From Mobula hypostoma (Eukaryota), in assembly GCF_963921235.1 (NCBI RefSeq), contig NC_086107.1:99078001-99142000 (forward strand): a stretch of DNA of 64,000 nt. The letters are read 5' to 3'. Each line of letters starts with the position of its first letter. Position 1 is the first letter of the stretch. A model generated the notes under the pieces. That model searched no databases. It was not told the DNA's origin and worked only from the letters and a program-made list of their open reading frames with translations. This document shows, in pieces, positions 8,820 to 64,000 of the stretch. Position numbers and translations under genes: made by a program.

Positions 8820-9654
8820 CCTACCTGGGAAAGAGAGGTTTCCATTTAGATGGACGTTACTGAGGCCCTTTGAAGTTCAAAGTACACGTATTATCGAAGT
8901 GTGTGTACTACATACAACCTTAAGTTTCGTCTCCTTGCAGGCAGCCACAAAACAAGGAAACATAATAGAACCCATTTAAACAGGACCGTCAAACACCCAG
9001 TGTGCAGGAAAAGATCGTGCAAACAATAAAATCACATTCAGATCTGAAGTTCACGAAAGTGAGTCCACAGCCACAAAGCCAGTCATCACTGCAGCCGGTC
9101 CAGGAGCCTGTTAGTTGCAGGCCACAGCCTCAGTTCAGCACAGAGACAAGTAAACCTCAGGGAGCAGTGAGCTGAACACCAGCCCTGACACCCTGACCTT
9201 TTCAATCTGGCCCAGTGCTTAAATCGGCCAAGCCTTGGGTTGTTCCTCACTCTCAGATCTGGGACCTCCTGGTCTGTTATGCTCTCAGGCCTGGGCCCCG
9301 CAGCCTCGATTCAAGAGGACAGGCCGATCCATTTTTAGACAATGTATTTTAAACCCCTCTGTACCCAGTGTGATGTTACAACGAGAGCCCAATCACAGAG
9401 AATCCAGCCTCACATTTGAGCCCGTCCAGATGCAGATGCGGTTGCCCCAGTGATCTGCCTGGACAGGTGCAGGTCCTGGAGACCTCTCTTTCCAACTCCG
9501 GCCCCTTTCCGTCCCAGGAGAGAGGCTGTAGGAAGGGCAGAGGCCCAGTTCACCCACAGCACCCTGTACTTGGATCACACAATGTGAGCAGGTAGGAGGG
9601 AGGGAAAGAGAGAGGAAGAAGAGAAAAGAGGGAGTTTAGAAGAATGAAGGAAGG

Positions 9655-24918: not shown

Positions 24919-27231
24919 ATATTCTATAGGTTTGCTGAGTATGCCCGTAGGAAAATGAATCTCAGGGTTGTATGTGATGACATGTATGTACTCTGATAAT
25001 AAAATTTACTTTGAACTTTGGCAAACAAAACAAAGATGATACGGGCTAAATGGCAGAACTCCACCCAGTGTGCAGGAACAGGTGGATCTGGATATACTTG
25101 GGTTTAGATTGTTGAGAGGGCAGAGTATATTGAGGGAGTGCTTAGTCAATCAAATGAGATCCTGAGATTGATAACTAGGAGCAGAGGAGTTATTTCAAAC
25201 CCTCAAACAACAATGGCTATGCCACCATCTGGAGTCTGGTGTCCACTTCTATCTATAGCATTTTAGGAAGGTTGCCAAGGTTCCAGATTCAAAGTACGTT
25301 TATTATCAAACTAAGGATGCAGTAAACAACCCTGAGATTTGTCTTCCCACAGACAGTCACAAAACAAAGAAGAACAATGGAAGCAGATTGTTCAGAGAAA
25401 CCAGCATCAAATCAGTATGGCCCGGGTCTGAGATCGTATCGAACCAGTCAGCATCCATGACCATCTGAGTACCTCTTCCATTTCATAATCATCTCCAAAG
25501 GTCATATCACTATGAGCCCCACTCATTTCCTACAAGCATTCTCTGACAAATCTAACATCAAAACCCCCTCCCCATAACATACAAAAATATAGTGCGAAGG
25601 GCAGCAAAAAAATGAATGAAAATGCAGACTACAAAACACAGAATCAAAAGGCATATTTCGGTTCAGTTCAGCTCAGAGTTCCTTATCTGCAGGCTGGCCC
25701 GATTCAAAAATTGCCCAAAATTAGTAACAAAAAAAGAGTGACCAAAACTAGAACACATCATAAACCTGAGAGTCCAAACCATGTCGAACAAGCCTTGCTA
25801 TGACACGAATGTAGCAAACTTTTCAGGGATGATGGCTACAAGGAGAAGCTTGGGTTGAGTAACAAAGATAAGATCTGGCAGAGATGAATATCATTGTTGG
25901 CTTATGGAAAGAAACCGGATGGAAACTGTTTCCAGTATCAATGGTTCAAGGACCAGGGGCATCAATTTAAAGTAAAACTAACACAGAGAGATTCTTTTTT
26001 TATTGAATGCAGAAAATGAGATCCAGAATTTGCAGATGATGGCATAATGGAAACTGAATTGGTGTCTTCAAAAGGGACTTGAGAGAAAATAATTTTCAGG
26101 CAAGTAGGAAAGTGGGCCAGCTGAGATTGCTTGACTTGGTGCTGGCAGAGTCTTGATGGGCTGAACGGCCTCTTCCCATGCCACAATAGTTCAGAGGCAC
26201 TATGTAACTCAGCAGTCGTCGGAGGGGAACCATGCCACAGAATGTAATGTCAACAGGCAGTGGCTGAGGTTCCAAACCGACTCCACTTTATTTTGCCTGG
26301 CATTCTGATATGGGTTCTGCTGATAGCAGCTCACATCAACAGTCGTTGCCTGACCTCGTGGTGAGAAATTAATGTGTTCCAATGAACTCCGGCTAAAGAC
26401 TTCCCACAAGTCCCCCGGTGTCTGCTGCAAAATCTATTTCACCATCCTTCCATGAACCTTTGATCTTCCTTTGTCCAAAGCAGCTCCATCCCACGGCTCA
26501 GTCCGTCTCCCACGGCATTTTTAAAAGTTCTGTCCTTAGCCCAAAACGATCTCCAAAAGCACTGTCATGGCCAGGAAGAACAAACTAATCAACTATGAAT
26601 TTTACTAGCGTCAGTCTACTGTAAGGCTTTGCCTACCCTAGTACTCCCACTCAATGATCCCCCAGTGACTACATCAGGGGGCGCTGTAGGTGGCTCTGGA
26701 CACTGACAGTGAGCCGCTGGAGCCCAGAAGCTCAGCTTTGGTCTAATTCTCTCATTAACGGTGGACAGTGCCTAGGTTCTCCTAGCCAACAAGGCCTTTA
26801 AAGATTAAAGACTAGCTCTAAAAGTTTAGCTTTATTCGTCACTTCTACGTCAATTGAAACACAGTGAAATGCATCGTGTGCGTCAATTGTGCTGGGCAGC
26901 CCACAAATGTCGCCACACCTCAATCTAGCATGCCCAAAAATCGCTAGACTTGGAATGTGGGAGGAAACCACAGCACCTGGAGAAAACCTACACAGCCGTG
27001 GGGAGAACGTACCGACTCCTGACAGACAGTGGCGGGAATTGAGCCCTGCCCTGTGATGCTGGCACTGTAATAACCTTACACAAACCGCCACGTTACCATT
27101 CTGTCCATGATAGACACACTACAGCTGGAAGAGCTGTAGGAGGTGGAACCATAAATGTTGAGATATCAGCCAGCCCATGATCTCCCAAAAGCACTGTCTC
27201 CACCCCAGAGTGTCAGCCTGCTCAAAGCCAA

Positions 27232-40144: not shown

Positions 40145-40778
40145 CCTTAGACCAACATTATATTCAACACAAGTCCACATCCTACCACTGATAATGAATG
40201 CCCATCATGATTTTATACAGTACATCTCTATAAAGATAATCTCTCAGTCTCCTTTATGCCCTTCATCAAATTCCAACACACGTTTCACATCTGTGCGAAT
40301 TAATCTAATCCATATGAATATAGAGTAAGGAGTTCGTTAATGTGATTCAATATACTGTATCTGGTATTATTATATTTTTTCTTTTGTTTTCTAATATGTA
40401 TTCTCTTGAACTCTGCATCCTTCAATATAGAAATCAATAAAAAATATTGGAAAAAGAAAAAAGACATCTGTGCCGTTAAAACTACACTGCATTCACCTTG
40501 GGCTAAAATGCTGTCCAGATTACACTGGAGGAAGCTTTTAAACTGCGTGCTGTCTGGAGGAGTCAGAAATAATCTACAACCACTTTAGATTTCCACAGTT
40601 AACAGTGTGTGTCCATACTACGTAAGTGGGGCCATCTTTATGGTTAGCTGATGGAAATCAGCTCTGTGTGTCTCTCTCTCCACGGACGCTGCCTGACTTG
40701 CTAAGTGTTTTCAGCGTTTTCGGTCTATACTTCAGATTTCCAGCATCTGCTGTATTTTGCATTTTGCTTGGTGTTAAA

Positions 40779-41585
40779 AGACCATAAGATACAGGAGCAG
40801 AAGTAGGCCATTCAGCCCATCAAGTCTGCTCCGCCATTCAATCATGGCTGATCCAATTCTTCCAGTCATCCCAACTCCCCTGCCTTCACCCCATACCCTT
40901 TAATGCCCTGGCTAATCAAGAACCTATCTATCTCTGCCTTAAATGCAACCAGTGACTTTTCCTCCACAGCCGCTCATGGCAACAAATTCCACAGATTTAT
41001 CACCGTCTGACTAAAGAAATTTCTCTGCATCTAAATGGACGTCCTTCAATCCTGAAGTTGTGCCCGCTTGTCCTAGACTCCCCTACCATGGGAAATAACT
41101 TTGTCATATCTAATCTGTTTAAGCCTTTTAACATTTGGAATGTTTGAGATCCCCCCTCATTCTCCTGAACTCCAGTGAATATAGCCCAAAAGCTGCCAGA
41201 CATTCCTGATACGGTAACCCTTCCATTCCTGGAATCATTCTCGTGAATCTCCTCTGAACCCTCTCCAATGTCAGTATATCCTTTCTAAAATAAGGAGCCC
41301 AAAACTGCACACAGTACTCCAAGTGTGGTCTCACCAGTGCCTTATAGAGCCTCAACATCACATCCCTGCTCTTATAATCCATACCTCTAGAAATGAATGC
41401 CAACTTTGCATTTGCCTTCTTCACCACCAACTCAACATGGAAGTTAACCTTTAGGGTATCTTTCACAAGGACTCCCAAGTCCCTTTACATCTCTGCGTTT
41501 TGAATTCTCTGTCCATCTAAATAACAGTCTACCCGCTTATTTCTTCCACCAAAGTGCATGACCATATACTTTCCAACATTGTATT
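40779..41585 (-). mobile_element. CR1 3' fragment (same subfamily as 55310-55995)
   Basis: LYKALVRPHLEYCVQFWAPY motif and CR1 tail. Confidence 0.9.
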
Positions 41586-42379
41586 TGTGATCATTCTGAC
41601 CAGCATTTTTAACTTGCCAGCTATTGATCCGCGCCCGAGTGGACAGAGACAAACCACTGTTGAGCACCCATGTGCTAATCTCAGAAATAGTTAAGTTTTT
41701 CATCGCCTTGAGTAAATGGGTCAGTAAATGGCAGATGCCGTACAGCGTGGCTGGCTATTCACTAATTAATATGGGAATGATGAGTCGAAAGGGGGGAGGA
41801 GAGGCGGGGGGAGGGTGTTAGAACAGAACCCCACCAGAGCGCTGATCAAGAAGGTGACCGCCGGGCTTTGCTGCAACCGGCCACCGCGTCACCGTCGGTC
41901 ACAGCAGACAGCGACAGCAGCGGGACCGTAGCACCATTCTGGCAGCGGGAACTTGGGTCTGAGGGAAGTTGCATTATTTCCCTCTAAAAGGGGGAGACTT
42001 CGCGTTTGACGAAGAACATCAAAGAGCCGCGACAAGCTGAAGGAAATTGTATTTTCGGTTAATTGCTCCAAATTCCGCTAACATCGAGAAATCACAACGC
42101 CTTGGGTAGAAAAAAACAATGCAAATGAACAGACAAATCATTCTAAAATATTTCCTGCCATTATACATTAATTCACAGCCTTCCTAAATACTGGTTTAAC
42201 ATCCAGAAACGCATCATTTCTTTTTATCAATATAGTATCCAAAATCCAACCATTCTAGAGTCAGAGCACTAAAAATAATCTAATATGAATTTTAACAATC
42301 CAAATTAAATCTTTAAATTCGAAATCTGCCGGATTTTAACCTACAAACACATAATGTAATCGTTGACATTATACAATAA

Positions 42380-43156
42380 CGATGCATTAGGCGATTATCT
42401 CCCGGAAAACGTTAGCTAACTCCTGCCTTTCCCCCTGACATCCTTCCCACATCCCGGGTCGCTGAGACATCCTCTCCTTCTCTCCAAGACCAAGTGAATG
42501 CGGCAGGAGGGGTTCACGGTCAGAGTACCATCTGGGCGCACCCCGGCGCAGGCTCGCTTTCACCGGCAGCGATACCTGGGCAGGGCCGGGGGACGCGTTA
42601 TCCGCCGCTGCTCGCACCGTTTGCCCGTGTCACCTTGCGCCTTGGCGCCCTTGCTGAAGCTGGCGGACCGCGCTGGAACACCGGCCAGAGCGGAGCTTTC
42701 TGACAACGCACAATTTTGCTTTCGGAGGAGGGTGGTTGGGGACGGGAACGGGATTTCGAGGAATTTCTGCAAATATTTCAAAGTTACCTGTTCGCGATAG
42801 CAAGGGCCAGATTCTGGGCAAAGCGGAGCAGCCGCCGGAGAGGAGATCAGGTGTCCGGGGGGGATGAGAGGGATTCGGGGAACTAGAGCTTTACAGTTCG
42901 GGCGACTGCATCAGACGAGCGTCTCCAGGTGGAAGAGGTCACTGCGGCGGGACGGTGCTCAGCGAGCCCGCAGCATGTCGCTCCGGACCTGCTCCTGAAG
43001 GGAGCGAGGCTGGCAGAGTGCCGCGCTCGCTCCCACAAATGCGGTCCCTCTCTCCCTCCCACCTTCCCATGAAACCCAGTTTAAATAGACGCGCCCTCTC
43101 CCTCTGCACTAACCCTCAAGCTCTCACTCAACGCAAGCGGCTGGGAACTGGGCGGA

Positions 43157-43157: not shown

Positions 43158-43195
<38 letters not shown>

Positions 43196-43239
43196 ATACA
43201 CACACACATACACACACACGGACACACACACACAGACAT

Positions 43240-43280
<41 letters not shown>

Positions 43281-43362
43281 CACACACACACACATACACA
43301 CACAGACATACACACACACACACATACACACACACACAGACATACACACACACACACACACA
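43158..43362. repeat. Interrupted (CA)n microsatellite
   Basis: Seen directly. Confidence 0.97.
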
Positions 43363-43432
43363 GACCCTCCCCTCCCCTGTCACAACAAAAACGTTCGGCG
43401 AACAATCGCTGCCTTTATGTAGCGCCCGAACT

Positions 43433-44226
<794 letters not shown>

Positions 44227-44647
44227 TTGAGGGGAGGGAGAGATCCCCAGGAGTAGAAGCTGAGCACACCTGACGGGCTGCAGGGCAAGAGGAAGAGAGC
44301 TGACAGAATCTGATCAAAGTGGTGAAGATATTTACAGCTCCTGCTGGTGGGAGAGCAGGGGAAAGGGCGGGATAGACCTGTGGCCACGACTGGAGACGGG
44401 GGCAGACAGAAACTGTTGTTCAGGAGGTTTTTCACATCAGTGAGGAGTAATGACAAAGCGGACACAGTCCTTCCTCCCAGCGAGGGAAGTCTGTTTCGCC
44501 GTATGACTCCGAAACTCTGTTCTGCCAGTAATGTGAGGGCTGGAAGATGAAGGTTTCGGCCAAGGCAGTGACCTCTGCTCTGTGTGTCCGCTCAGCTCCG
44601 TCTCCTTCGTCCAGACCAAAGGCCAGCGCCCACAGTCGCTGCGCCAT

Positions 44648-45060: not shown

Positions 45061-45486
45061 GGCTCTCCTCCCTTATCAAACCCAGCAATCGGGACTGGGC
45101 TGTTATAGTTAGATGTACTGAGATGCGATCAAAAGCACTGAGTGACATCCACAGATACTGCCTCTGTCAGATAATGCCACGCAGAACCATATGGAAATAG
45201 AACAATGAAAGAAAGCCAGAACTACCCGCTGCCGGGTAAAATGGGTAGTGGTGGGGTCATTAAACATCGCCCCAGGTTAAAAATCATTCATGCTAAAGGC
45301 TTGGGGGGGGGGGGGGAAATCATTTCCTAATATTTCTCATGACCCAAAACAAGTGGGAATGTGAACACTAGAGACCGTGCTGATGTGGGAAACCTGGAGC
45401 AACACACACAAGATGCTGGAGGAACTCAGCACGTCAGGCAACATCCATGGAAAGGAATTTCAGGTCGAGACCCTTCCTCAAGGACC

Positions 45487-47675
45487 TGTAATAAGATAGA
45501 CTGGCAAATGACACTTAAAGGGTTGACGGTGGATATGCAATGGCAAGCATTTAAAGGTTGCATGGATGAACTACAACAATTGTTCATCCCAGTTTGGCAA
45601 AAGAATAAATCAAGGAAGGTAGTGCACCCGTGGCTGACAAGAGAAATTAGGGACAGTATCAATTCCAAAGAAGAAGCATACAAATTAGCCAGAGAAAGTG
45701 GCTCACCTGAGGACTGGGAGAAATTCAGAGTTCAGCAGAGGAGGACAAAGGGCTTAATTAGGAAGGGGGAAAAAGATTATGAGAGAAAACTGGCAGGGAA
45801 CATAAAAACGGACTGTAAAAGCTTTTATAGATATGTAAAAAGGAAAGGACTGGTAAAGACAAATGTAGGTCCCCTGCAGACAGAAACAGGTGAATTGATT
45901 ATGGGGAGCAAGGACATGGCAGACCAATTGAATAATTACTTTGGTTCTGTCTTCACTAAGGAGGACATAAATAATCTTCCAGAAATAGTAAGGGACAGAG
46001 GGTCCAGTGAGATGGAGGAACTGAGCGAAATAGATGTTAGTAGGGAAGTGGTGTTAGGTAAATTGAAGGGATTGAAGGCAGATAAATCCCCAGGGCCAGA
46101 TGGTCTGCATCCTAGAGTGCTTAAGGAAGTAGCCCAAGAAATAGTGGATGCATTAGTGATAATTTTTCAAAACTCGTTAGATTCTGGACTAGTTCCTGAG
46201 GATTGGAGGGTGGCTAATGTAACCCCACTTTTTAAAAAAGGAGGGAGAGAGAAACCGGGGAATTATAGACCGGTTAGCCTAACGTCGGTGGTGGGGAAAC
46301 TGCTGGAGTCAGTTATCAAGGATGTGATAACAGCACATTTGGAAAGCGGTGAAATGATCGGACAAAGTCAGCATGGATTTGTGAAAGGAAAATCATGTCT
46401 GACGAATCTCATAGAATTTTTTGAGGATGTAACTAGTAGAGTGGATAGGGGAGAACCAGTGGATGTGGTATATTTGGATTTTCAAAAGGCTTTTGACAAG
46501 GTCCCACACAGGAGATTATTGTGCAAACTTAAAGCACACGGTATTGGGGGTAAGGTATTGGTGTGGGTGGAGAATTGGTTAGCAGGCAGGAAGCAAAGAG
46601 TGGGAATAAACGGGACCTTTTCAGAATGGCAGGCGGTGACTAGTGGGGTACCGCAAGGCTCAGTGCTGGGACCCCAGTTGTTTACAATATATATTAATGA
46701 CTTGGATGAGGGAATTAAATGCAGCATCTCCAAGTTTGCGGATGACACGAAGCTGGGTGGCAGTGTTAGCAGTGAGGAGGACGCTAAGAAGATGCAGGGT
46801 GACTTGGACAGGTTGGGTGAGTGGGCAAATTCATGGCAGATGCAATTTAATGTGGATAAATGTGAAGTTATCCATTTTGGTGGCAAAAATAGGAAAACAG
46901 ATTATTATCTGAATGGTAGCCGATTAGGAAAAGGGGAGGTGCAACGAGACCTGGGTGTCATTATACACCAGTCATTGAAAGTGGGCATGCAGGTACAGCA
47001 GGCGGTGAAAAAGGCGAATGGTATGCTGGCATTTATAGCAAGAGGATTCGAGTACAGGAGCAGGGAGGTACTACTGCAGTTGTACAAGGCCTTGGTGAGA
47101 CCACACCTGGAGTATTGTGTGCAGTTTTGGTCACCTAATCTGAGGAAAGACATCTTTGCCATAGAGGGAGTACAAAGAAGGTTCACCAGATTGATTCCTG
47201 GGATGGCAGGACTTTCATATGAAGAAAGACTGGATGAACTGGGCTTGTACTCGTTGGAATTTAGAAGATTGAGGGGGGATCTGATTGAAACGTATAAGAT
47301 CCTAAAGGGATTGGACAGGCTAGATGCAGGAAGATTGTTCCCGATGTTGGGGAAGTCCAGAACGAGGGGCCACAGTTTGAGGATAGAGGGGAAGCCTTTT
47401 AGGGCCAAGATTAGGAAAAACTTCTTCACACAGAGAGTGGTGAATCTGTGGAATTCTCTGCCACAGGAAACTGTTGAGGCCAGTTCATTGGCTATATTTA
47501 AGAGGGAGTTAGATATGGCCCTTGTGGCTACGGGGGTCCGGGGGTATGGAGGGAAGGCTGGGGCGGGGTTCTGAGTTGGATGATCAGCCATGATCATAAT
47601 AAATGGCGGTGCAGGCTCGAAGGGCCGAAGGGCCTACTCCTGCACCTATTTTCTATGTTTCTATGTTTCTATGTA
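45487..47675 (+). mobile_element. Young 5'-truncated CR1 LINE with uninterrupted RT ORF and (TTCTATGT)n tail
   Basis: Stop-free ORF to 47574 with all RT motifs (KSPGPDG, NYRPVSL, LDFQKAFD, GVPQGSVLGP, FADD); no endonuclease domain; 3' hairpin and octamer tail intact. Confidence 0.96.
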
Positions 47676-50024: not shown

Positions 50025-50540
50025 ACAGCACTTTATGAAACACCTGCTCTTTAATGCAAATATCTAATCAGCCAATCATGTGGCAACAAACTAATGCATA
50101 AAAGCATGCAGACATGGTCAAGAGGTTCAGCTGTTATTCAGAATGGGGAAGAAATGTGATCCACGTGACTTTGACCGTAGAATGATTGTTGGTGCCAGGC
50201 AGGGTGGTTTGAGTATCACAGAAACTGCTGATCTCCTGGAGTTTTAACATACAAGAGTTGCTAGAGTTTACAGAGAATGTGAGAAACTAAAAAAAAGCAA
50301 AATCCAGTGAGAGATAGTTCTGTGGGAAAAATAACCTTGTTAATGAGAGAGATCAGAGAAGAGTGGTCAGACTGATTCAGATTGACAGGAAGGTGCCAGT
50401 AACTCAAATAACCACATATTACAACAGTGGTGTGCAGAAGAGCACCTCTGAACGTGCAACATGTTCAGCCTTGATGTGGATGTGCAACAGCAGCAGAAGA
50501 CCATGAACAGCAGGTACATAATAAGGTAGACATTGAGTAC
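50025..50540 (+). mobile_element. Tc1/mariner non-autonomous remnant
   Basis: Tc1-like text (aatatctaatcagccaatcatgtggc; DFDRRMIVGARQGGLSITETADLLEF transposase N-terminus) and a degenerate TIR at the right end. Confidence 0.75.
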
Positions 50541-50569
50541 ATATGAAAGGCACCAACCCCACGCTGTAC

Positions 50570-53500
50570 GGAGTGTTCCCTCCCCTCCACTGTACACACT
50601 GTTCCCTCCCCTACACTGTACACACTGTTCCCTCCCCTACACTGTGCACAGTGTTCCCTCCCCTACACTGTACACAGTGTTCCCTCCCCTACACTGTACA
50701 CAGTGTTCCCTCCCATACACTGTACACACTGTTCCCTCCCCTACACTGTACACACTGTTCCCTCCCCTACACTGTGCACAGTGTTCCCTCCCCTACACTG
50801 TACACAGTGTTCCCTCCCCTACACTGTACACAGTGTTCCCTCCCCTACACTGTACACAGTGTTCCCTCCCCTACACTGTACACACTGTTCCCTCCCCTAC
50901 ACTGTGCACAGTGTTCCCTCCCCTACACTGTACAGAGAGTGTTCCCTCCCCTACACTGTACACAGAGTGTTCCCTCCCCTACACTGTACACACTGTTCCC
51001 TCCCCTACACTGTACACAGTCTTCCCTCCCCTACACTGTGCACAGTGTTCCCTCCCCTACACTGTACACAGAGTGTTCCCTCCCCTACACTGTCCACAGA
51101 GGGTTCCCTCCCCTACACTGTACACAGAGTGTTCCCTCCCCTACACTGTACACACTGTTCCCTCCCCTACACTGTGCACAGTGTTCCCTCCCCTACACTG
51201 TACACAGTGTTCCCTCCCCTACACTGTACACACTGTTCCCTCCCCTACACTGTACACAGTGTTCCCTCCCCTACACTGTACACACTGTTCCCTCCCCTAC
51301 ACTGTACACAGAGTGTTCCCTCCCCTACACTGTACACAGAGTGTTCCCTCCCCTACACTGTACACAGAGTGTTCCCTCCCCTACACTGTACACACTGTTC
51401 CCTCCCCTACACTGTACACAGTCTTCCCTCCCCTACACTGTGCACAGTGTTCCCTCCCCTACACTGTACACAGAGTGTTCCCTCCCCTACACTGTCCACA
51501 GAGGGTTCCCTCCTCTACACTGTACACAGAGTGTTCCCTCCCCTACATTGTACACACTGTTCCCTCCCCTACACTGTACACAGTGTTCCCTCCCCTACAC
51601 TGTACACACTGTTCCCTCCCCTACACTGTGCACAGTGTTCCCTCCCCTACACTGTTCAGAGAGTGTTCCCTCCCCTACACTGTACACAGAGTGTTCCCTC
51701 CCCTACACTGTACACACTGTTCCCTCCCCTACACTGTACACAGTCTTCCCTCCCCTACACTGTACACACTGTTCTCTCCCCTACACTGTACACACTGTTC
51801 CCTCCCCTACACTGTGCACAGTGTTCCCTCCCCTACACTGTACACAGAGTGTTCCCTCCCCTACACTGTACACAGAGTGTTCCCTCCCCTACACTGTACA
51901 CAGTGTTCCCTCCCCTACACTGTACACACTGTTCCCTCCCCTACACTGTGCACAGTGTTCCCTCCCCTACACTGTACACAGAGTGTTCCCTCCCCTACAC
52001 TGTACACAGAGTGTTCCCTCCCCTACACTGTACACACTGTTCCCTCCCCTACACTGTACACAGTCTTCCCTCCCCTACACTGTGCACAGTGTTCCCTCCC
52101 CTACACTGTACACAGAGTGTTCCCTCCCCTACACTGTCCACAGAGGGTTCCCTCCCCTACACTGTACACAGTGTTCCCTCCCCTACACTGTACACACTGT
52201 TCCCTCCCCTACACTGTACACACTGTTCCCTCCCCTACACTGTGCACAGTGTTCCCTCCCCTACATTGTACACACTGTTCCCTCCCCTACACTGTGCACA
52301 GTGTTCCCTCCCCTACACTGTACACACTGTTCCCTCCCCTACACTGTGCACAGTGTTCCCTCCCCTACACTGTACAGAGAGTGTTCCCTCCCCTACACTG
52401 TACACAGAGTGTTCCCTCCCCTACACTGTACACACTGTTCCCTCCCCTACACTGTACACAGTCTTCCCTCCCCTACACTGTACACACTGTTCTCTCCCCT
52501 ACACTGTGCACAGTGTTCCCTCCCCTACACTGTACACAGTGTTCCCTCCCCTACACTGTACACACTGTTCCCTCCCCTACACTGTACACAGTGTTCCCTC
52601 CCCTACACTGTACACACTGTTCCCTCCCCTACACTGTGCAGTGTTCCCTCCCCTACACTGTACACAGAGTGTTCCCTCCCCTACACTGTACACAGAGTGT
52701 TCCCTCCCCTACACTGTACACACTGTTCCCTCCCCTACACTGTACACAGTCTTCCCTCTCCTACACTGTGCACAGTGTTCCCTCCCCTACACTGTACACA
52801 GAGTGTTCCCTCCCCTACACTGTACACACTGTTCCCTCCCCTACACTGTACACAGTCTTCCCTCCCCTACACTGTACACACTGTTCCCTCCCCTACACTG
52901 TGCACAGTGTTCCCTCCCCTACACTGTCCACAGAGTGTTCCCTCCCCTACACTGTACACAGAGTGTTCCCTCCCCTACACTGTACACAGTTCCCTCCCCT
53001 ACACTGTACACAGTGCTCCCTCCCCTACACTGTACACAATGTTACCTCCCCTACACTGTACACAGTGTTCCCTCCCCTACACTGTACAGAGAGTGTTCCC
53101 TCCCCTTCACTTATATAGAGTGCTCCCTCCCTCTAACACTGTACAGTGTTCCCTCTCCTACACTGTCCAGAGAGTGTCCCCTCTCTCTACATTGTACACA
53201 TTGTACCCTCTCCTGCATTGTACACAGTGTTTCCTCCTCTTCACTTATATAGAGTGCTCCCTCCCCTACACTGTACAGTGCTCCCTCCCCACACCGTACA
53301 GAGTGTTCCCTCTCCTACACTGTACAGAGAGTTTTCCCTCCCCTTCACTTATATAGAGTGCTCCCTCCCTCTAACACTGTACAGTGTTCCCTCTCCTACA
53401 CTGTCCAGAGAGTGTCCCCTCTCTCTACATTGTACACATTGTACCCTCTCCTGCATTGTACACAGTGTTTCCTCCTCTTCACTTATATAGAGTGCTCCCT

Positions 53501-53744
53501 CCCCTACACTGTACAGTGCTCCCTCCCCCACACCGTACAGAGAGTGTTCCCTCCCCTACACTGTACAGTGCTCCCTCCCCCACACCGTACAGAGTGTTCC
53601 CTCTCTCTACACTGTACAGTGTTCCCTCCCCCACACTGTACAGAGTGTTCCCTCTCTCTAACTGTACAGTGTCCCCTCTCTCTACGCTGTACACATTGTA
53701 CCCTCTCCTGCATTGTACACACTGTTCCCTCCACACTGTACACA
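50570..53744. repeat. Minisatellite, 26-28 bp unit GTGTTCCCTCCCCTACACTGT(A/G)CACA(GA), about 115 units
   Basis: Seen directly; degenerate after about 53095. Confidence 0.98.
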
Positions 53745-54563
53745 CGTAACGCGCTGCTACGGTTGTAGAGTATTTCATGCAAAGGTCTTTCTGTAGAAGC
53801 AGTGATTGGGTTTCTGTTGGAGTTAAGCGATGCTTGGGAATTTGGGGCATCCAATCAGCAGAGTGGAACGACGAAGGTTCTAGAGAAGGCTGGGGGACCG
53901 GTTTTGTGACCGACACCAGTGGCGGGTCTTCATCCTTTTTGGCGGCAGATAAAGAGATAAGACGCGGGATCCGATCCCGTGGGAAACGCGACTCGGCGGA
54001 GCCCAGGCGCGGAGTTCTGCCGAGGATCAGTGACTATGGGTTTTGGAAGATTTCAGCTCCAGCCTCTGCACATTTGACTGTTTAGTTAGAATGGTCCTTT
54101 TTAATTTACTAACTCTTTGGTTAAATTAACATTCACATATATACTTCATAATTGCGTGCAGTATGCGATCTGTTATTTCATACCGACTGGCTATTGCAGG
54201 GTAGTAAATCACACAAACCGGGGTCTGAGTGAGCGAGAGATCCCAACACCACGGATTTGGCGGGACCAAAGTCATACACACCCCAGACGTACGAAGCCGG
54301 AGAAGGTTGCGGAACCCAGTGGCTGTTAGGTAGGGGTTAACGAGGCGCATTTCCAGAGACGCCCAGTAAAATGGGGTTTTGTTGTCGCGGCAATCGTCCC
54401 GGATTGAATTCGCTGAACGCGTTGTGATAGCCCTAAGAATTGATTAGGTGGGTCTGTGGTTAAACCTATGTTAAACTATAGTCCGGGAAAGTGATTAACG
54501 CTGCAGGGATTAAGAATTCCTCGTGTAGGGGTTAAACGTTGGTGCGATCGCCTGCAGATAATG

Positions 54564-54757
54564 TAAACACGAGGAAATCTGCAGATGCTGGAAATTCAAG
54601 CAACACACATCAAAGTTGCTGGTGAATGCAGCAGGCCAGGCAGCATCTCTAGGAAGAGGTACAGTCTACGTTTCGGGCCGAGACCCTTCGTCGACTGTAG
54701 CTCTTCCTAGAGATGCTGCCTGGCCTGCTGCGTTCACCGGCAACTTTGATGTGTATT
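54564..54757. mobile_element. Penelope-derived palindromic element with 14-bp TSD, nested in Gypsy
   Basis: GCCTGCAGATAATG at 54550-54563 and 54758-54771; near-perfect inverted arms of about 70 bp. Confidence 0.88.
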
Positions 54758-55309
54758 GCCTGCAGATAATGGTTGTGTTCCGTGCGGCGTGGATATCCGC
54801 AGCCCAGATGAATTGTTGACTAGGGTTTTAAGCGCTGTTAAATCAGTAGGAAAAGTTACGGATAATATGAGCAAACGGAGGGGAAAGAGGTAGCATTAAT
54901 TCAGACCAGCACTGACGTAACGGGAGTGGATCTGCCTGGTACCTTTGGGGTCCCAGGAGAGGCAGGGCCGTGGGCCGTCCACTCTTTCCAAGGAAAAGGG
55001 AGAGCAGGCGAGAGCGCCGAGTTTCCCCGTAGCTGACGGCGGAGGCTTTAGAGACAAGTTGCTGTCGTGTCCGCGGAGCGCGGGGTGAGGAGTGGTCTGA
55101 TGTGGAAGGTCTAACGGGTCCCCCAGCGAGGGGTGAAAACTGAGCTGGTATCGTCCCTTACGTCCCCGGCGGATAAATGGCAAAAGTGAGTCAAAGGTCC
55201 GGCCGGCCGCTGAAGTCGCGAGGTCCTTAAAGGCAGAGATCCCTTTGGCCACTTCCGGGGGCTACATCCAAGCGCTAGAAAACTATTTTTTTGCACGACA
55301 GGAGTTTAA

Positions 55310-55995
55310 AAAACCATAAAATATAGGAGCAGAAGCAGGCCACTTGGCCCATCGAGACTGTTCCGCCATTCAGTCATGGGCTGATCCAATTCTTCCAGTC
55401 ATCCCCACTCCCCTGCTTTCACTCCATACCTTTTGATGCCCTGGCTAATCAAGAACCTATCTATCTCTGCCTTAAATACACTTCATGACTTGGCCTCCAC
55501 GGCCACTCATGGCAACAAATACCACAGATTTACCACCCTCTGACTAAAGCAATTTCTCCGCATCTCTGTTCTAAATGGACGTCTTTCAATCCTGAAGTCA
55601 TGCCCTCTTGTCCTAGACTCCCCTACCATGGGAAATAACTTTGCCATATCTAATCTGTTCAGGCCTTTTAACATTTGGAATGTTTCTGTGAGATCCCCCC
55701 TCATTCTCCTGAACTCCAGGGAATACAGCCTAAGAGCTGCCAGATGTTCCTCATACGGTAACCCTTTCATTCCTAGAATCATTCTCATGAATCTTCTCTG
55801 AACCCTCTCCAACATCTGTATATCCTTTTTAAAATAAGGAACCCAAAACTGCACACAATAAGTGTGGTCTCATGAGTGCTTTATAGAGCCTCAACATCAC
55901 ATCCCTGCTCTTATATTCTATACCTCTAGGAATGAATGCCAACATTGCATTCGCCTTCTTCACCACCGACTCAACCTGGAGGTTAACCTTTAGGG
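55310..55995 (-). mobile_element. CR1 3' fragment nested in Gypsy gag
   Basis: CR1 C-terminal ORFs 55507-55854 and 55829-56149; Gypsy sequence on both sides. Confidence 0.9.
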
Positions 55996-58900
55996 CGTTT
56001 ATGACGGGTTTGGGAGCATATTTCGGGTGGGGGGACTTTCTGTCCGGATGTTCCGGCAAGAGAGACGGCTGCGTGGCTTGCGGCGTACAGGGGGCATCCA
56101 AACGGCGGAGGAGAATCACTTGATGGGCCAAGAGGCGAAGGGCGCGCAATCACAGGGCACGAATGGCTCGCAAGACGTAACACCCCCCCCCCCGTTTGTC
56201 GAGCTGACCAGAGAAGTAAGGGAGGGGGGAAATGCGATGGAGGAGCGGGAGGCCTCTGTCAGTAGGGCACAGTCCTCGGAAGTAGCTTCTGTTGCTGAAG
56301 TGACCCCCCGATATGTGACCCCCGCGGGTGTTACAGGAGTTCGTGGCAGATTGTACAGCCGAGGTATCCGGGTTGATTTCGGCGGGTGCGGCCGCCAAGC
56401 ATGAGAAAGCCGATAGGGGTTAGCCCACTGAGGGGACGTACCACGCAGAGGGCTGCTATTGAACGGGTTCCCTGGAAAGGGGGAGCGGCGGTATTGTCTG
56501 TTACGACGGCGGCGAGGAGGCACACTTCAGGCGAGAGTGTGAAGGAGGGAAAACCTTCGGAAAGTGAGCCCACGGTTAGTAAGCAGAGAGCGAAGTTGGA
56601 AAACTTCGGAGAGAGGAAATGGCCTGGAATCTGGGGTCACGTTTCAAGCAATACATCAAGGAAGATACTAACGTGAAAAACCTTATTCCCGAGGGTTTAG
56701 CGGGGCCAAACTCCAGCGTATCCCTACGGATCGAGGGTGTTTCTGCTAGAGCCTTACTTGACACAGGTTCTCGGTTATTCTGCTGTGCAGATTCTTCTAC
56801 AACCAGTCTTTGACGCATCGACCATTGAAGCCACTCAGTGCGCTAGAGCCCGGGAGCCTTAGTGCTGGTGACTAACCGTAGGATGATTACTTGTCGTTGA
56901 AGCGAGAGTTTTCTGAGGCAGATGTGGGAGTAGCTGAGGTCCCCGGTACGTTAGTGCTGGTTTGTCCGGACCCGGTCGAGAAGGGCGAGGCTTCAATTCT
57001 CGTGGGGATGAATGCTTCTGTTGTGAAGAGGCCAGAGGGAGCCTGCGAGGAGAAAGTTGAAGAGAGTTTTCAGAAAGCATTGTCCGTTCACCCTTTGTCC
57101 GTGTGTGGTACACCCCGGTCCAAGCGCATCGCGTTACGGCCAGGGGGAGTAGCTGGAGCGACGGGAAACCCCAGATTTCCCGGAATGCCTGAGGCCGATG
57201 CCCTCTTGGCGGCTGCTCCGGATGACCACGAAGAGGAGTCGGGCTTACCTGCTGGGGTACTGGTGAGGCCCGAACTGCGGAAGCCGTTGGTTGTACAGGT
57301 GAGCAGGATGACAGCTAGAGTCAGGAAGACCTCGGAGAGGGAGGTCACTCTCAGGCGGGGAAAGCCTCTGGCACACCCCTTTCTCCCGGTGACAGTCATG
57401 TCTAGTGCTCCTGCGAGACAAGCAGAAGAGAAACCATCTCCTGGAAAGGGAACGTTGACAGGCAAGTCATTCAACTTTGGGGACTTCCCGGTCCCTGGAG
57501 GTTGATAGAGAAGACGATGGAGCTGGAAGATGTCTTTTTCTACTGACGAGTTTGCTGGGGGTTGTTCCAAGAGCACTCGCCACACCATCCGGGTGACAGA
57601 GGACACCTCTTTCACAGAAAGCTCTCGGCGACTGGAGGACGTTCGGCAGCATCTGCGGAAGTTGGGATCGTCACTGAGTCCAGGAGCCCCGGTGCGTCCT
57701 CCGTAGCGGTGGCGAGGAAGAAGAATGGGAAGGTACGAATATGTGTTGACTATCGGACTCTAAACCGACGTACGGTCCCTGACACCGGCTACGAGGGCCG
57801 CCCCTTCACGCCATTTGCAGAGTGCGGGGCCACTTGATCTGGCGTGTGTGTGGAACACGGCGAGTGTCTTGGTTATTACTGATCACAACACCAGATACGC
57901 TCAAGCCTCCCCTACAAAGGATCAGCGGGCGACCCCCGTGGCCAAAGTGTTATGGGAGAAGTATTTCGTTCATTAAGGCCCTCCCAGACGCCTACATGGC
58001 GATCAGCGAAGGGATTTTGAGAGTCGGCTTAAAGGTGAGTTACTGGGCGTGCTTGGAGTCGAGAAGACGAGGACTACGCTTTATCACCCATAGGGCGATC
58101 CCCAGCCCGAGAGGTTCAATCGGACATTGGTGGACATGCTCTGAAACTTGGAGATCAGTAAGAAGAACAAACTGAGTCAGCATATTCTACATCTGGTCCT
58201 CTGCTGCAACTGTACACGGAATGAAGCTACTGGGTACTCGCCGTATTATTCGATGTTCGAGCTCGAAGCAAGGTTGCCTGGTGACTTTTAGTTTGGGATT
58301 GGTGGGGAAGATTTTGCCACAGAAGCCCTATCTTAAGTATGCGTCTGACATGAGGAGGGAATTTCAGAAGGCTTATGGACTAGCAGAGGTCTCTCCTACC
58401 AAGCAGAATCAACAGGCAAGATGATCAAAAGATTAGGTTCTCCCAAATGATGCCTAGAGACAGAATTCTCATGAAGAATTTGGGGCTACCAGGGAAGCAT
58501 AAGTTGGTTAACTGTTGGGTGTCTACATCTTACACAGTGGAGAGTCAGATGCCAAATGTACCAGTTTTCCAGGTGAAACCAGAGGATGGGAATGGACCTG
58601 TCAAGATTCTCCATCAGAACCACCTTCTGCCTCTGAGACAAGAGGTGCATGTTGATCCAGAGCCTGACTGGGACCCTACACCTAGTAAGAGGACTCTGCA
58701 GTGACGTGGGAGAACAGAAGGACAAGCAGTGGGAAGGCCTGGAAGGGAATTAACCACTGAATGTCGTACAGACTCAGAGGTTGAGGAAATGGGAGTATGG
58801 TATACGTTACCCTATGTAAACTCCCCAATAACTGAAGAGATTCCCAAACCTTCCCACTCCGATGCAGATGAAATGGGGTGGGTGTGGATTAGCAGTGGAC

Positions 58901-59424
58901 AGGCAGGCTTGCAGCTGGATAATATGGAGAGACTGGGCTCTAAAGTAACTGGGAATGAAGCTGAGCTCAGCCAAGTGACAGGGGGACCAGAGTTGATGGA
59001 AGGCGTGAGTAATGGACAGGGGGAGGCCTCCCCATGTGGACAGGAAAGATCCCAGAGAGTGTCAGAAACTGAAGGAGTAGATGATGGGGTAAGGAGCTCT
59101 CAAAGAGTCAGGAAACCCCTAGACAGGCTGGCCAATGTCACACTGGGGGAACAGGGCATTGCACCTATTCCACTGGTGAGATATGTCACAAACACTTACA
59201 AATGCATTGGAGGTTCTGATGTCACAAAATTCCTTTGAAAACTGTGATATTAATTTTGGTGGGAGATGAAAAGAGAAGACACAGGAGAGAACCAATAATA
59301 AGATTCAGCCAAGTGGGGAAACGCGATTCGATGGAGTCCAGGCATGCAGGTCTGCCGAATATCAATAAATATAGCTTTTGGAAGATTTAAGTTCCAACCT
59401 CTGCACATTTGACTGTTTAAGTGA

Positions 59425-61260
59425 GCTCTCCCTACACTGTACATAGTGTTCCTCCCCTGCACTGTATACAGTGTTCCTCCCCTGCACTGTATACAGAGTG
59501 TTCCTCCCCTGCACTGTATACAGAGTGTTCCATCCCCGGCACAGTATACAGTGTTCCTCCCCTGCACTGTATACAGAGTGTTCCTCCCCTGCACTGTATA
59601 CAGAGTGTTCCTCCCCTGCACTGTATACAGAGGGTTCCATCCACTGCACTGTATACAGTTTCCCCCACACTGTATACAGAGTGTTCCCGCCGCTGCACTG
59701 AATACAGAGTGTTCCTCCCTGCACTGTGTACAGAGTGTTCCTCCCCTGCACTGTATACAGAGTGTTCCATCCTCTGCACTGTACAGAGAGTGTTCCCTCC
59801 CCTACACAGTACACAGAGTGTTCCCTCCCCTACACTGTATACAGAGTGTTCCCTGTCCTACACTGTACACAGAGTGTTCCCGCCCCTACACTGTACACAG
59901 AGTGTTCCCTCCCCTACACTGTACACAGTGTTCCCTCTCCTACACTGTACACAGAGAGTTCCCTCTCCTACACTGTATACACAGTGTGCACTCCCCTACA
60001 CTGTACAGAGAGTGTTCCCTCCCCTGCACTTTACACAGAGTGTTCACTCCCCTACACAGTATACAGAGTGTTCCTTCTCCTACACTGTATACACAGTGTT
60101 CACTCCCCTACACTGTACACAGAGTGTTCCCTGTCCTACACTGAACATAGAGTGTTCCCTCCACTACACAGTACACAGAGTGTTCCTCCTACACTGAACA
60201 TAGAGTGTTCACTCCCCTACACTGTACACAAAGTGTTCCCTCCCCTACACTGTACACAGAGTGTTCCCTCCCCTACACTGTACACAGTGTTCCCTCCCCT
60301 ACACTGTATACAGAGTGTTCCCTCCCCTGCACTGTACACAGAGTGTTCCTCCTACACTGTACACAGAGTGTTCCCTCCCCTACACAGTACACAGAGTGTT
60401 CCCTCCCCTACACTGTACAGAGAGTGTTACCTCCCCTACACTGTACACAGCGTCCTCTCTCCTGCACAGTACACAGAGTGTTCCTCCTACACTGTACACA
60501 GAGTGTTCCCTCCCCTACACTGTACACAGAGTTTTCCCTTCCCTACACTGTACACAGTGTTCCCTCCCCTACACTGTACAGAGAGTGTTACCTCCCCTAC
60601 ACTGTACACAGAGTGTCCCCTCTCCTGCACAGTACACAGAGTGTTCCCTCCCCTACACTGTACACAGAGTGTTCCCTCCCCTACACTGTACAGAGAGTGT
60701 TCCCTCCTCTACACTGTACAGAGAGTGTTCCCTCCCCTACACTGCCCACAGAGTGCTCCCTCCCCTACACTGTACACAGTGTTCCCTCCCCTACACTGTA
60801 CACAGAGTGTTCCCTCCCCTGCACTGTACACAGAGTGTTCACTCCCCTACACAGTACACAGTGTTCCTTCCCCTACACTGTACACAGAGTGTTCCCTCCC
60901 CTACACTGTACACAGTGTTCCCTCCCCTACACTGTACACAGAGTGTTCCCTCCCCTACACTGTACACAGTGTTCCCTCCCCTACACTGTACACAGAGTGC
61001 TCCCTCCCCTACACTGTACACAGTGCTCCCTCCCCTACACTGTACACAGTGTTCCCTCCCCTACACTGTACACAGAGTGCTCCCTCCCCTACACTGTACA
61101 CAGAGTTTTCCCTCTCCTACACTGTACACAGTGTTCCCTCCCCTACACTGTACCATGTTCCTCCCCTACACTGTACACAGAGTGTTCCCCTCTACACCAC
61201 ACACAGAGTGCTCCCTCCCCTACACTGTACCATGTTCCTTCCTTATGCAGTACACAGTGC
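59425..61260. repeat. Second array of the same 26-28 bp minisatellite, about 65 units
   Basis: Seen directly; same orientation as 50570-53744; most degenerate next to the Gypsy element. Confidence 0.97.
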
Positions 61261-61966
61261 ATTTTTACGCAGAAAGTGTTCTTTCCAGTGCCACACACAA
61301 ATGCCTGTTCTCTCAGTTCCACACGCTGAGCGCCTCCTTCAATACACGTGAGAATCGATTCCTCTAACATACGCTGAGCAGCTTTCACATGGTATCTCAG
61401 AATTAGTTCTTCTTTACTACAGAACTGGAAGCAAAACGGTTAAAGTTAGTCGCAATCCAGAGAGTTGAATTATTCATCTGGAGAAATGTGTTCAAATCCC
61501 AGTGCGGAAGCCAGAGAGTTTAATGTAGTTAATTAACCAATCTGTGATGGTGATCGTGAAATTACTGGATGCTTGTGAATTACCATCTGGTTTATTGGAG
61601 CCTTTTGGCGAAGGAAGCCTACGGTCCCTGCTTGTTCGTTCTCAGGCTCCGTACCTTACCATCACACACCTCACTTCATCTCACCTCCTAAGGTGGGTCA
61701 CAAGCCACGGGTGGAGGTCAGATGTATGGATAAACACTCTGCCCTTCCCTGAGATGGCCCATCCAATGAAAGAATAAATAAGGCCATCCAGTGGGGAAGA
61801 TAAGTAGTCCAAACAGAATGAGATGCCAGAGGTCTGGATGATGAAGAGGTAACCCTGCTGAGTCTGGGCTGAGGCCCAAGAAGAAACACTGGCGGTACTC
61901 CACCTCCCCCCACCCCCCCCCCAGGTCAGAGATCTCATATCGGCAGCGCCCGTACCTGAAGCTGTG

Positions 61967-62376
61967 TATCACAACCACAGATTCGGCTGCGCAGCAGATC
62001 CGGGAAACACTTCGTATCAGCTAATTATTATTTCATTGTGACGGTACTTAACTCCATTCTTTTTGTCGTAGCACTGGTCGAGACTTGAGCAAAGCACAGC
62101 AACATTACGCTACCTGCTTGCATTCGGCCTTGCCTGAGAAATTGGGCTGTCGAGTCAACTCACACTGAAGGCTAGCGGCATTCGTTTTATATTTAGTTAT
62201 CCCTTTCAGCCGTAGTGTAGGCTTCGTTTTCCATTTGATAGTTAACGGCCCTGTTTGGCCTAGCGTTTATAGTTTTCTTCTCCCTCTAAACTCTGTTTTG
62301 CTTTAAAGTCTGTGAACTATCGACACGCCTCAGTGTCCCTCACCCGGCGCTTGGGCCACGTCTGAACGTAGTGACA
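61967..62376 (+). mobile_element. Solo LTR (410 bp) with 5-bp TSD
   Basis: Ends TATCAC (probably from TGTCAC) ... GTGACA; TSD CTGTG at 61962-61966 and 62377-62381. Confidence 0.8.
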
Positions 62377-62804
62377 CTGTGATTCTGAGCAGACCCTGGA
62401 GCTTCAGGACAAGGTCTGAACCATCAGGGCTGGGCTCCAACCACAGCCCTGTGCTGCTACTGCCCACAGGTAGTCAGGGAGCATAAAACCTTACTTAAGA
62501 TCACCAGACAGTGACTGGTGTCTCAGGTCACCCGCACAGCATATTGCTGTCCCATTAACTTGGCCAACTGGCCCCACTCTCTTGTTGTTAGAAGTGTGTG
62601 TGTGTGTGTGTGTGTGTGATCACCTGGAAGAACTATGGAGGGTGCATCTGTAGACCAGAGTAAGTGTAGGGGTGGGGGTGACTCGTCCCTGCTTTCTGCA
62701 CAGATCCAGAGCCCCCTCAAAGTTGGTTTAGCACAGGGAGCAAGTGACTATCCAGGCACAGCACCCACGACCTGTGACCAGGGGTCCAGGGATCTAGAGG
62801 CACA

Positions 62805-63480
62805 TTAGATTAGATTAGATTATGAGGACACTCAGTCCTCGTTTATTGTCATTTAGAAATGCTTGCATTAAAAAATGATACAACATTCCTCCAGAATGAT
62901 ATCACAAGAAAACACAGGACAAACCAAGACTAAAACTGACAAAACCACATAATTATAATATATTGTTACAACAGTGCAAAGCAATACCGTAATTTGATAA
63001 AGAGCAGACCATGGGCACGGTAAAAAAAGTCTCAAAGTCCCGATAGCCTCATCATCTCACACAGGCGGCAGAAGGGAGAAACTCTCCCTGCCATGAACCT
63101 CCAAGCGCCGCCAACCTGCCAGTGCAGCACCATTGGAAGCACCCGACCGCAGCGGACTCTGAGTCCGTCCGAAAAGTTTGAGCCTCCAACCAGCCCCTCC
63201 GACACAGCCTCTCCGAGCACCATCCTCTGCCGAACGCTTCGACCTGCCCTGGCCACTGAGCAACAAGCAAAGCCGAGGACTCGGGGCCTTCTCCTCCGGA
63301 GATTCTGGATCATACAGTAGCAGCAGCAGCAAAGCAGGCATTTCAGAAGTTTCACCAGATGTTCCTCCGTGCTCTCACGTCCGTCTCCATCAAATCAGAA
63401 TTGTGCACGGTCCCCTACTTGACAAATACCAGACTTCACCACCGGAGTGGCCGCTGCGAACTGCGTCGTCCCACCATCTT
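62805..63480 (-). mobile_element. Non-autonomous retroelement with (TCTAA)n tail
   Basis: TTAGA repeats at about 62805-62822 and a GC-rich 5' part; no recognisable ORF. Confidence 0.5.
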
Positions 63481-64000
63481 CTCCTCCTGCCTTTTGGATG
63501 ACACTGGGCTGATGTTCGTCTTTATGGCCCCTTCCAGGCACAGGGCTGCGTCCAGACTGAAATCTGGAGACCCAAGGGACTGGGACCGGATGAAGGGGCT
63601 CGGCCCGGAACGGCCACTCTCTGCTTCCCTCCATGGATTCTGCCTGGCCTCCAGCATTCTTGTGTGCTGCTCCAGGTCAAAGTCTGAGCAACAGCGGCTT
63701 CGTTTGGAAAGTCCGAATCTCACCAGGCAGAGTCTGCACGGCTTCCTGAAGGGAAAATCTGGTCTCTTTTTGAGGGAACGAAAACCGAGGGGGAAACAAA
63801 AGGAACTCAGCCGTTCAAGCTGCATCTGTGAGTGGGTGGGAGGGGGATATGGGGAGGACGTGTCCCGTCACAGATGACACCTGCCCCACTAAATCCCTCT
63901 AGCAGATTATGTTTTGTTCCAGAGCCGAGCATCTTGTGCCTCAACTAAACTGAACCACTAATTGGACTTGACAAAGGTCTTTGTCTCAGTGCCTCACAAA

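What the first reader, a model, noticed from the sequence alone, without database searches (positions are those of the whole stretch)
53745..59420. The two LTR copies of one Gypsy element diverged with a 15:1 GC skew, and the element splits into a CpG-rich and a CpG-poor part
Seen: 53981-54084 and 59316-59419 align without gaps over 104 nt with 18 differences. In 15 the 5' copy has G/C where the 3' copy has A/T, 1 goes the other way, and 2 are G/C swaps; many are outside CpG context. By eye the element is CpG-dense from about 53.7 to 58.1 kb and CpG-poor from about 58.2 to 59.4 kb, and the presumed terminal TG of the 5' LTR reads CG. Established: LTR pairs are identical at insertion, and methylated TEs normally lose CpG. 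Inference: the left part has been under a different substitution regime, either GC-biased gene conversion at a recombination hotspot next to the minisatellite or a germline-unmethylated, TE-derived CpG island about 11 kb upstream of RASD2.
Basis: partly seen in the sequence, partly recalled or inferred. Interest (0 to 1): 0.7.

Follow-up and report, generated by a model that had tools for sequence, protein, structure and literature searches.

The report
Dead Gypsy element turned CpG island
The front three-quarters of a dead jumping gene kept its CpGs and gained G/C while its tail decayed normally, the footprint expected of an unmethylated patch that once drew recombination: a clear single example of a known process.

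Summary
In detail: 15:1:2 over 104 nt (p=0.0005; 12:1 outside CpG) and a sharp CpG break at about 58,265 (o/e 0.88 left, 0.16 right). The contrast is private to this copy. At residues invariant in distant relatives, the left part shows 26 W>S against 16 S>W changes and no CpG decay (0 of 46 chances); the right shows 0 against 8 (p=0.0014). Total divergence is equal (22% vs 23%). A related species carries the same junction. Corrections: part of the LTR skew is ordinary decay of the 3' copy. The CpG-rich part is interrupted by a CpG-poor LINE insert that evolved AT-ward (8:17), so the GC drive is old or patchy, not continuing across the locus. The minisatellite shows no signal. A chimera of two insertions is not excluded but would not explain the private W>S excess. 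Methylation and recombination were not measured. The process is known from dogs and other mammals, and this scan has noted similar cases on other DNA.

The parts
50530..53744 (.). 26/28-nt minisatellite, left flank
   Evidence: TRF 50557-53744, period 26; no usable W>S/S>W signal
53745..54342 (+). 5' LTR (3' end inferred from an inverted terminal motif and a recalled LTR/PBS pattern); both ends read CG; CpG-rich
   Evidence: summed depth of other copies highest at 53745-54124 among Gypsy non-coding bins
53981..54084 (+). 104-nt LTR segment, 5' copy
   Evidence: family D11, 83%
53745..58265 (+). CpG-retaining, W>S-biased part of the element (3.63 kb of Gypsy sequence once the two inserts are removed)
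   Evidence: o/e 0.88, TpG+CpA o/e 0.96; 26 W>S: 16 S>W, measured only over the coding stretch 56.66-58.30 kb
54563..54762 (.). nested palindromic high-copy insert (MITE-like; label from memory)
   Evidence: arms 92% complementary; siblings at 39.5, 48.5 kb; other copies skip it (joints); S/W 13:9 and 19:14 vs siblings, n.s.
55306..55995 (-). nested LINE 3' fragment (CR1-like; label from memory), CpG-poor, ordinary AT-ward spectrum
   Evidence: 88% to 40774-41456; 29:29 unpolarised; polarised 8 W>S: 17 S>W
56660..57783 (+). broken protease region and start of RT
   Evidence: tblastn of P0001-P0008, 43-75% identity
57770..58294 (+). broken integrase core, joined to the RT start by a deletion of about 560 codons (most of RT and RNase H)
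   Evidence: query jumps from residue 400 to 963 of P0001; homologues carry PF00078, PF17917/9, PF00665, PF17921
58266..59419 (+). CpG-decayed part: integrase C-terminal region and 3' LTR fragment
   Evidence: o/e 0.16, TpG+CpA o/e 1.31; 0 W>S: 8 S>W
59254..59419 (+). 3' LTR fragment, lacking about 190 nt at its 5' side and its 3' end
   Evidence: local alignment starts at 53937/59254
59420..61240 (.). same minisatellite family, right flank, same orientation
   Evidence: TRF 59430-61230, period 28

Best explanation
One CpG-rich Gypsy copy inserted into a minisatellite and died. Shown: its 5' 3.6 kb lost almost no CpG and (in the coding stretch that could be polarised) took more A/T-to-G/C than G/C-to-A/T changes, while its last 1.15 kb lost most CpGs and drifted to A/T. 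Inferred: the 5' part stayed unmethylated in the germ line (a TE-derived CpG island, probably seeded by the CpG-dense LTR), and as an open island it drew meiotic recombination, so GC-biased gene conversion of moderate strength (B about 1-1.4 averaged over its life) pushed it towards 60-65% GC. The drive was strongest before the nested LINE arrived (roughly the first half of the element's age) or skips that insert. The 15:1 LTR skew is the sum of 5' gain and retention and 3' decay.
For: Invariant residues: left 26:16, right 0:8, Fisher p=0.0014; relaxed 35:25 vs 3:12, p=0.01; equal total change, 61 of 277 vs 15 of 65. CpG transitions 0 with 46 chances left vs 3 with none left on the right. W>S includes both strands (12 A>G, 7 T>C) and 7 transversions. 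With all CpG-making and CpG-losing changes removed, 15:14, GC* 0.60, above an assumed mutational ratio of 0.45-0.6 (p=0.002-0.013). Neighbouring LINE copies GC* 0.26. Right part has a TpG/CpA surplus, so the element was CpG-rich at birth. Polarity checked at DNA level: 11 of 20 rows agree, 0 disagree, 3 synonymous, 6 neither. Whole-element totals against other copies are balanced (158:148, 157:149, 161:148) rather than AT-ward. A contig from species B spans the CpG break (58074-58588, 9 differences). Same minisatellite on both flanks. Precedent: unmethylated islands attract recombination and gBGC in dogs (PMC4350167 abstract; PMC11161765 passages).
Against: The nested LINE shows no GC drive (8:17, like its sibling 6:14; differs from the left part, p=0.024). 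Recent A/B differences that I could polarise by hand are about 4 W>S: 6 S>W. With 150 more divergent homologues the contrast is significant in 1 of 3 settings (15:8 vs 2:11 p=0.006; 12:8 vs 1:4 p=0.16; 6:6 vs 0:4 p=0.23). Only 42 polarised left changes; GC* interval 0.49-0.79. The observed 15:1 is still more extreme than the two spectra predict (p=0.03). A 3.6-4.5 kb tract with a sharp edge is wide for one hotspot (own knowledge). The mutational baseline is assumed, not measured in this species. No methylation, chromatin or recombination data; TEs in elephant shark are mostly methylated (PMC5437953 passages, somatic data).
Confidence: 0.6

Rival explanations
1. Chimera: left and right parts come from two insertions. 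The left part gained its GC bias elsewhere, or several kb further off, and was joined to the right part by a crossover in the integrase near 58.3 kb; the LINE arrived afterwards under an ordinary regime, and the CpG-dense part stayed unmethylated on its own.
For: Sharp break; LINE insert ordinary; the two LTRs do not align upstream of 53937/59254; contigs of species C and E carry the same ORF-end-to-inner-LTR join at 86-90% identity, which could mark a short-LTR subfamily; no target-site duplication can be checked.
Against: Equal divergence of both parts; same minisatellite in the same orientation on both flanks; the join is also explained by a deletion between two look-alike motifs; one species-B copy departs at 59254 (record 23). 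It still needs a GC-biased, unmethylated history for the left part.
Confidence: 0.17
2. Hypomethylation alone with island-type mutational bias (for example TDG-driven TpG/CpA-to-CpG changes), no recombination drive.
For: No CpG decay on the left; CpG-making transitions are more frequent per chance (8 of 58 vs 11 of 147); both LTR ends read CG; mechanism proposed in PMC4041421 (abstract); LINE insert, poor in CpG, is unaffected.
Against: That excess is not significant (p=0.18); W>S excess remains without CpG-making changes (GC* 0.60, p=0.002-0.013) and includes transversions.
Confidence: 0.15
3. The left part is simply a GC-rich subfamily or non-autonomous lineage, with ordinary decay.
For: More family contigs fit the 5' LTR bins than the 3' LTR bin (about 3-fold), though edge effects and the indel weaken this; non-autonomous Gypsy families are noted in this genome (unchecked notes).
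Against: W>S changes hit invariant residues and other copies in three species carry the W letter at those shown; ordinary decay would have removed CpGs (0 of 46).
Confidence: 0.05
4. RNA editing or deaminase hypermutation during retrotransposition, or an assembly error.
For: A>G is the commonest single class on the left (12).
Against: T>C (7) and transversions (7) go the same way, so it is not one-strand editing; four runs of species A hold 67-75% of words (may be the source sample) and species B holds the locus at about 2-4%.
Confidence: 0.03

Closest known systems
Unmethylated CpG islands as PRDM9-independent recombination hotspots with gBGC (dog: PMC4350167, abstract; placental mammals: PMC11161765, passages)
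   Same: Low CpG mutation together with raised W>S substitution and high GC*; gBGC creating or keeping islands away from genes; such hotspots shift slowly with hypomethylation.
   Different: Here the island is a dead LTR retrotransposon in a ray-like genome, with an internal decayed control and a nested insert that dates the drive; recombination and methylation are not measured.
CpG-island regimes of Cohen, Kenigsberg and Tanay 2011 (seen only as summarised in PMC8286816, one passage)
   Same: Island kept without selection by the balance of methylation, deamination and conversion.
   Different: Their 'biased gene conversion islands' are methylated with fast deamination; this one shows no deamination, so it mixes their canonical unmethylated class with a conversion signal.
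Mouse ERV copies with one unmethylated and one methylated LTR (PMC3491417, passages) and CpG-dense IAPs that escape silencing (PMC8555987, abstract)
   Same: Two LTRs of one element in different methylation states; CpG-dense retroelement DNA acting as an island.
   Different: Those are young copies measured in somatic or ES cells, unmethylated close to a TSS; here the state is inferred from about 10% divergence per copy, reaches through pol, and lies about 11 kb from the nearest promoter-like island.
Ty3/Gypsy LTR retrotransposons (P0001-P0008 type)
   Same: LTR, protease-RT-(RNase H)-integrase order, 43-75% identity.
   Different: Dead copy: frameshifts, stops, loss of most RT/RNase H, truncated 3' LTR.

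Membership tests
Ty3/Gypsy LTR retrotransposon | pol order protease, RT, RNase H, integrase | tested here: met
   Collinear with P0001-P0008; integrase follows RT; RNase H lost in a deletion. Pfam finds nothing on the 12 fragments themselves.
Ty3/Gypsy LTR retrotransposon | direct terminal repeats | tested here: met
   104 nt at 83% plus a 32-nt extension; 3' copy truncated
Single insertion (both LTRs from one event) | target-site duplication and matching full LTRs | tested here: inconclusive
   3' LTR lacks both ends; equal divergence and shared flanking array favour one locus
CpG island (sequence definition, recalled: GC over 50%, o/e over 0.6, over 500 bp) | composition | tested here: met
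   GC 0.54, o/e 0.88, 3.6 kb in pieces
Germline-unmethylated island | low CpG transition rate | tested here: met
   0 of 46 (strict), 2 of 54 (relaxed); 1 of 10 single-contig A/B differences, weak (p=0.02 to 0.15)
Germline-unmethylated island | measured hypomethylation or H3K4me3 in germ cells | not testable with these tools
   no methylome available
gBGC tract | W>S excess on both strands, transitions and transversions, outside CpG | tested here: met
   weaker with the second homologue set
gBGC tract | acts on all DNA inside the tract | tested here: not met
   nested LINE 8:17; compatible only with an old or patchy drive
gBGC tract | fixation bias in polymorphism and raised recombination rate | not testable with these tools
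   no population data or map
PRDM9-independent hotspot | PRDM9 absent, partial or bypassed in this lineage | not tested
   No genome held; SSXRD domain reported absent in some cartilaginous fish (PMC5519329 passages), no ray named in the passages seen

The most novel reading that the evidence does not exclude
In rays, dead LTR retrotransposons that escape methylation seed new CpG islands that become default (PRDM9-independent) recombination hotspots; paired LTRs and nested inserts record when each hotspot switched on and off, so thousands of such copies could map and date recombination in a lineage for which I found no such map.
Probability: 0.25. Interest if true: 0.7.

Novelty: new member of a known kind. 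Interest (0 to 1): 0.4.

Why it matters
It is a natural experiment: one neutral insertion with a protected part, a decayed part and a dated insert. It suggests that the link between hypomethylation and GC-biased conversion known from dogs and other mammals also holds in cartilaginous fish, shows a route from TE to CpG island, and warns that LTR-pair dating assumes equal regimes. It is one locus with small counts and no functional evidence.

Tried and rejected
No own genome is held, so copies could not be counted or compared whole. Pfam gave 0 families on 12 of 12 fragments. Three homologue searches gave no close ray protein except a 60-residue piece inside P0009. Minisatellite unit variants show no W>S gradient that can be trusted (distinct types 10:10 left, 13:18 right). 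Palindromic insert vs siblings not significant. No RNA holder listed; run X9 is probably DNA; neither bears on expression. Read laying showed only 40 of 514 difference rows, chosen as best supported, so regional spectra could not be read from it; rows at CpG sites are likely under-shown where other copies overlap. Summed contig depth is not a copy number. Editing, assembly error and a plain GC-rich subfamily were rejected (see rivals). Literature searches (listings and abstract starts only, beyond the papers named) listed no report of this in rays or for an LTR pair; most subscription papers are outside the library and no supplements were read.
Full report
Observation. The two LTR segments align without gaps over 104 nt with 18 differences: 15 strong in the 5' copy and weak in the 3' copy, 1 the other way, 2 G/C swaps. 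The skew has p=0.0005, and 12:1 remains when the 3 CpG transitions are removed (p=0.003); this is not corrected for the stretch having been picked by eye. K2P distance is 0.20, about 10% per copy. In Gypsy-only sequence the CpG density breaks at 58,265 (range 58,259-58,300): 229 CpG in 3,628 positions before, 10 in 1,154 after; o/e 0.88 vs 0.16, against 0.35 for 1.1-41.5 kb.

Anatomy. The element lies inside a 26/28-nt minisatellite that continues on both sides in the same orientation. The 5' LTR runs from 53,745 to about 54,342 (end inferred from a recalled terminal pattern). Relatives P0001-P0008 (RT, RNase H and integrase domains on record) align over protease, RT start, integrase core and integrase tail, with about 560 codons missing between RT start and integrase. 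Two younger inserts sit in the CpG-rich part: a palindromic element at 54,563-54,762 and a LINE fragment at 55,306-55,995 (family labels from memory). The 3' LTR is a fragment, 59,254-59,419, that follows the ORF end almost directly. A deletion between two look-alike motifs would explain that (inference), but a short-LTR subfamily is possible, since contigs of species C and E show the same join at 86-90% identity. No target-site duplication can be read.

Is it real DNA? Four runs of species A hold 67-75% of sampled words (possibly the source sample). Species B holds the locus: 70 differences in six pieces covering about 2.85 kb of the left part, 13 in 323 nt at the 3' end, and one contig spanning the CpG break with 9 differences in 514 nt. 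The break is older than the A/B split and not an assembly join.

Direction of change. No genome was held, so I polarised changes at codons where at least 6 of 10 homologues align and all agree; the homologues are 53-89% identical to one another. Left (56.66-58.30 kb): 277 sites, 61 changed, 26 W>S, 16 S>W, none a CpG transition. Right: 65 sites, 15 changed, 0 W>S, 8 S>W, 3 of them CpG transitions (Fisher p=0.0014; without CpG p=0.013). At 85% agreement: 35:25 vs 3:12 (p=0.01; without CpG p=0.054). Ambiguous and multi-step codons were left out of the ratios (12 left, 5 right in the strict set). With 150 more divergent proteins the direction is the same but significant in only 1 of 3 settings (15:8 vs 2:11, p=0.006; 12:8 vs 1:4, p=0.16; 6:6 vs 0:4, p=0.23); these reuse the same window changes. 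The polarity was checked on DNA: of 20 coding-region rows shown, the letter of other copies agrees with the homologues against this copy in 11, never the reverse, 3 are synonymous and 6 fit neither. So the changes are private to this copy. The non-coding left 2.9 kb could not be polarised this way.

Two components. First, CpG: 0 transitions with 46 chances on the left, 3 with none remaining on the right. The right part has a TpG/CpA surplus (1.31 vs 0.96), so the element was CpG-rich at birth and the left richness is mostly retention. Among 10 single-contig A/B differences on the left, 1 is a CpG transition (p=0.02 if 45% are expected, 0.15 if 30%), a weak hint that protection continues. Second, non-CpG: per chance, GC* is 0.63-0.65 (interval 0.49-0.79), 0.60 with all CpG-making and CpG-losing changes removed, above an assumed mutational ratio of 0.45-0.6 (p=0.002-0.013). 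Both strands and transversions take part. That is B of about 1-1.4. Neighbouring LINE copies give GC* 0.26 including CpG.

Results against an ongoing hotspot. The LINE in the middle of the left part differs from its 88% sibling by 29:29. Polarised against other window copies it took 8 W>S and 17 S>W, the sibling 6 and 14, with 15 sites unresolved; this differs from the surrounding Gypsy (p=0.024). Its branch is about 4-5% long, roughly half the element's age. Recent A/B rows that I polarised by hand are about 4:6. The minisatellite gives no signal. At the LTR pair, other copies mostly carry the 5' letter at 2 of the 15 sites shown (mixed in species B at one of them) and the 3' letter at one G/C swap, so part of the skew is 3' decay. 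The two spectra predict a 71% share, and 15 of 16 is still on the high side (p=0.03).

Mechanism. Best reading (0.6): the 5' part became a germline-unmethylated island, drew recombination, and was pushed towards GC mainly before the LINE arrived. The substitution pattern is shown; hypomethylation, recombination and timing are inferred. Rivals: chimera of two insertions (0.17), hypomethylation with island-type mutation bias only (0.15; PMC4041421 abstract; the CpG-making excess is not significant), GC-rich subfamily (0.05), editing or artefact (0.03).

Known systems. Dog islands with low CpG mutation and gBGC, including new islands away from genes (PMC4350167, abstract); PRDM9-independent hotspots in hypomethylated regions of most placentals, read through GC* (PMC11161765, passages); island regimes (PMC8286816, one passage on Cohen et al. 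2011); one-sided LTR methylation (PMC3491417, passages); CpG-dense IAPs escaping silencing (PMC8555987, abstract); episodic gBGC (PMC12290510, abstract start in a listing). In cartilaginous fish, TEs are mostly methylated (PMC5437953, passages), chromosome ends and small chromosomes are GC- and tandem-repeat-rich (PMC10620051, passages), and PRDM9 lacks SSXRD in some species (PMC5519329, passages); PMC8892340 gave one uninformative passage. Unchecked scan notes describe similar TE or retrocopy islands in other genomes.

Verdict. A real, well-controlled single example of a known coupling, in a lineage where my searches listed no such report. New member of a known kind; interest 0.4.

Noticed in passing
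window 59236-59285 and 53925-53968: The 3' LTR fragment begins at a purine-tract-like motif that resembles a motif inside the 5' LTR; the same join occurs in contigs of species C and E (86-90%), while one species-B copy departs at 59254. Locus deletion or short-LTR subfamily.
   Followed up: partly
window 53745 and 54341-54342: Both presumed ends of the 5' LTR read CG, each a W>S change that makes a CpG.
   Followed up: partly
window 57770-57783: About 560 codons of RT and RNase H are missing with no cargo at the junction, unlike the cargo-bearing Gypsy families noted elsewhere in this genome.
   Followed up: partly
window 41800-43150: CpG island (87 CpG, o/e 0.92) with a TATA-like motif near 43,080 and a donor-like site near 42,790 on the minus strand (read by eye); possible non-coding first exon of the Ras-family gene whose coding exon is at 8415-8876. 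The Gypsy island (229 CpG) is larger.
   Followed up: no
window 45343-47574 (+) and 23471-24961 (-): Two young LINE copies with long open RT frames (743 and 496 aa).
   Followed up: no
P0009, residues 596-654: A Mobula birostris OAS3-like gene model contains a 60-residue piece of this Gypsy family (62% to window 57119-57298); probably an annotation artefact or exonised TE.
   Followed up: no
window 1-1013, 43158-44227, 50530-53744, 59420-61240: Long simple repeats and a background CpG o/e of 0.35 suggest a chromosome end or small chromosome.
   Followed up: no
window 61300-64000 and 17500-18500: Further CpG-rich patches (o/e 0.5-0.8), not examined for substitution bias.
   Followed up: no
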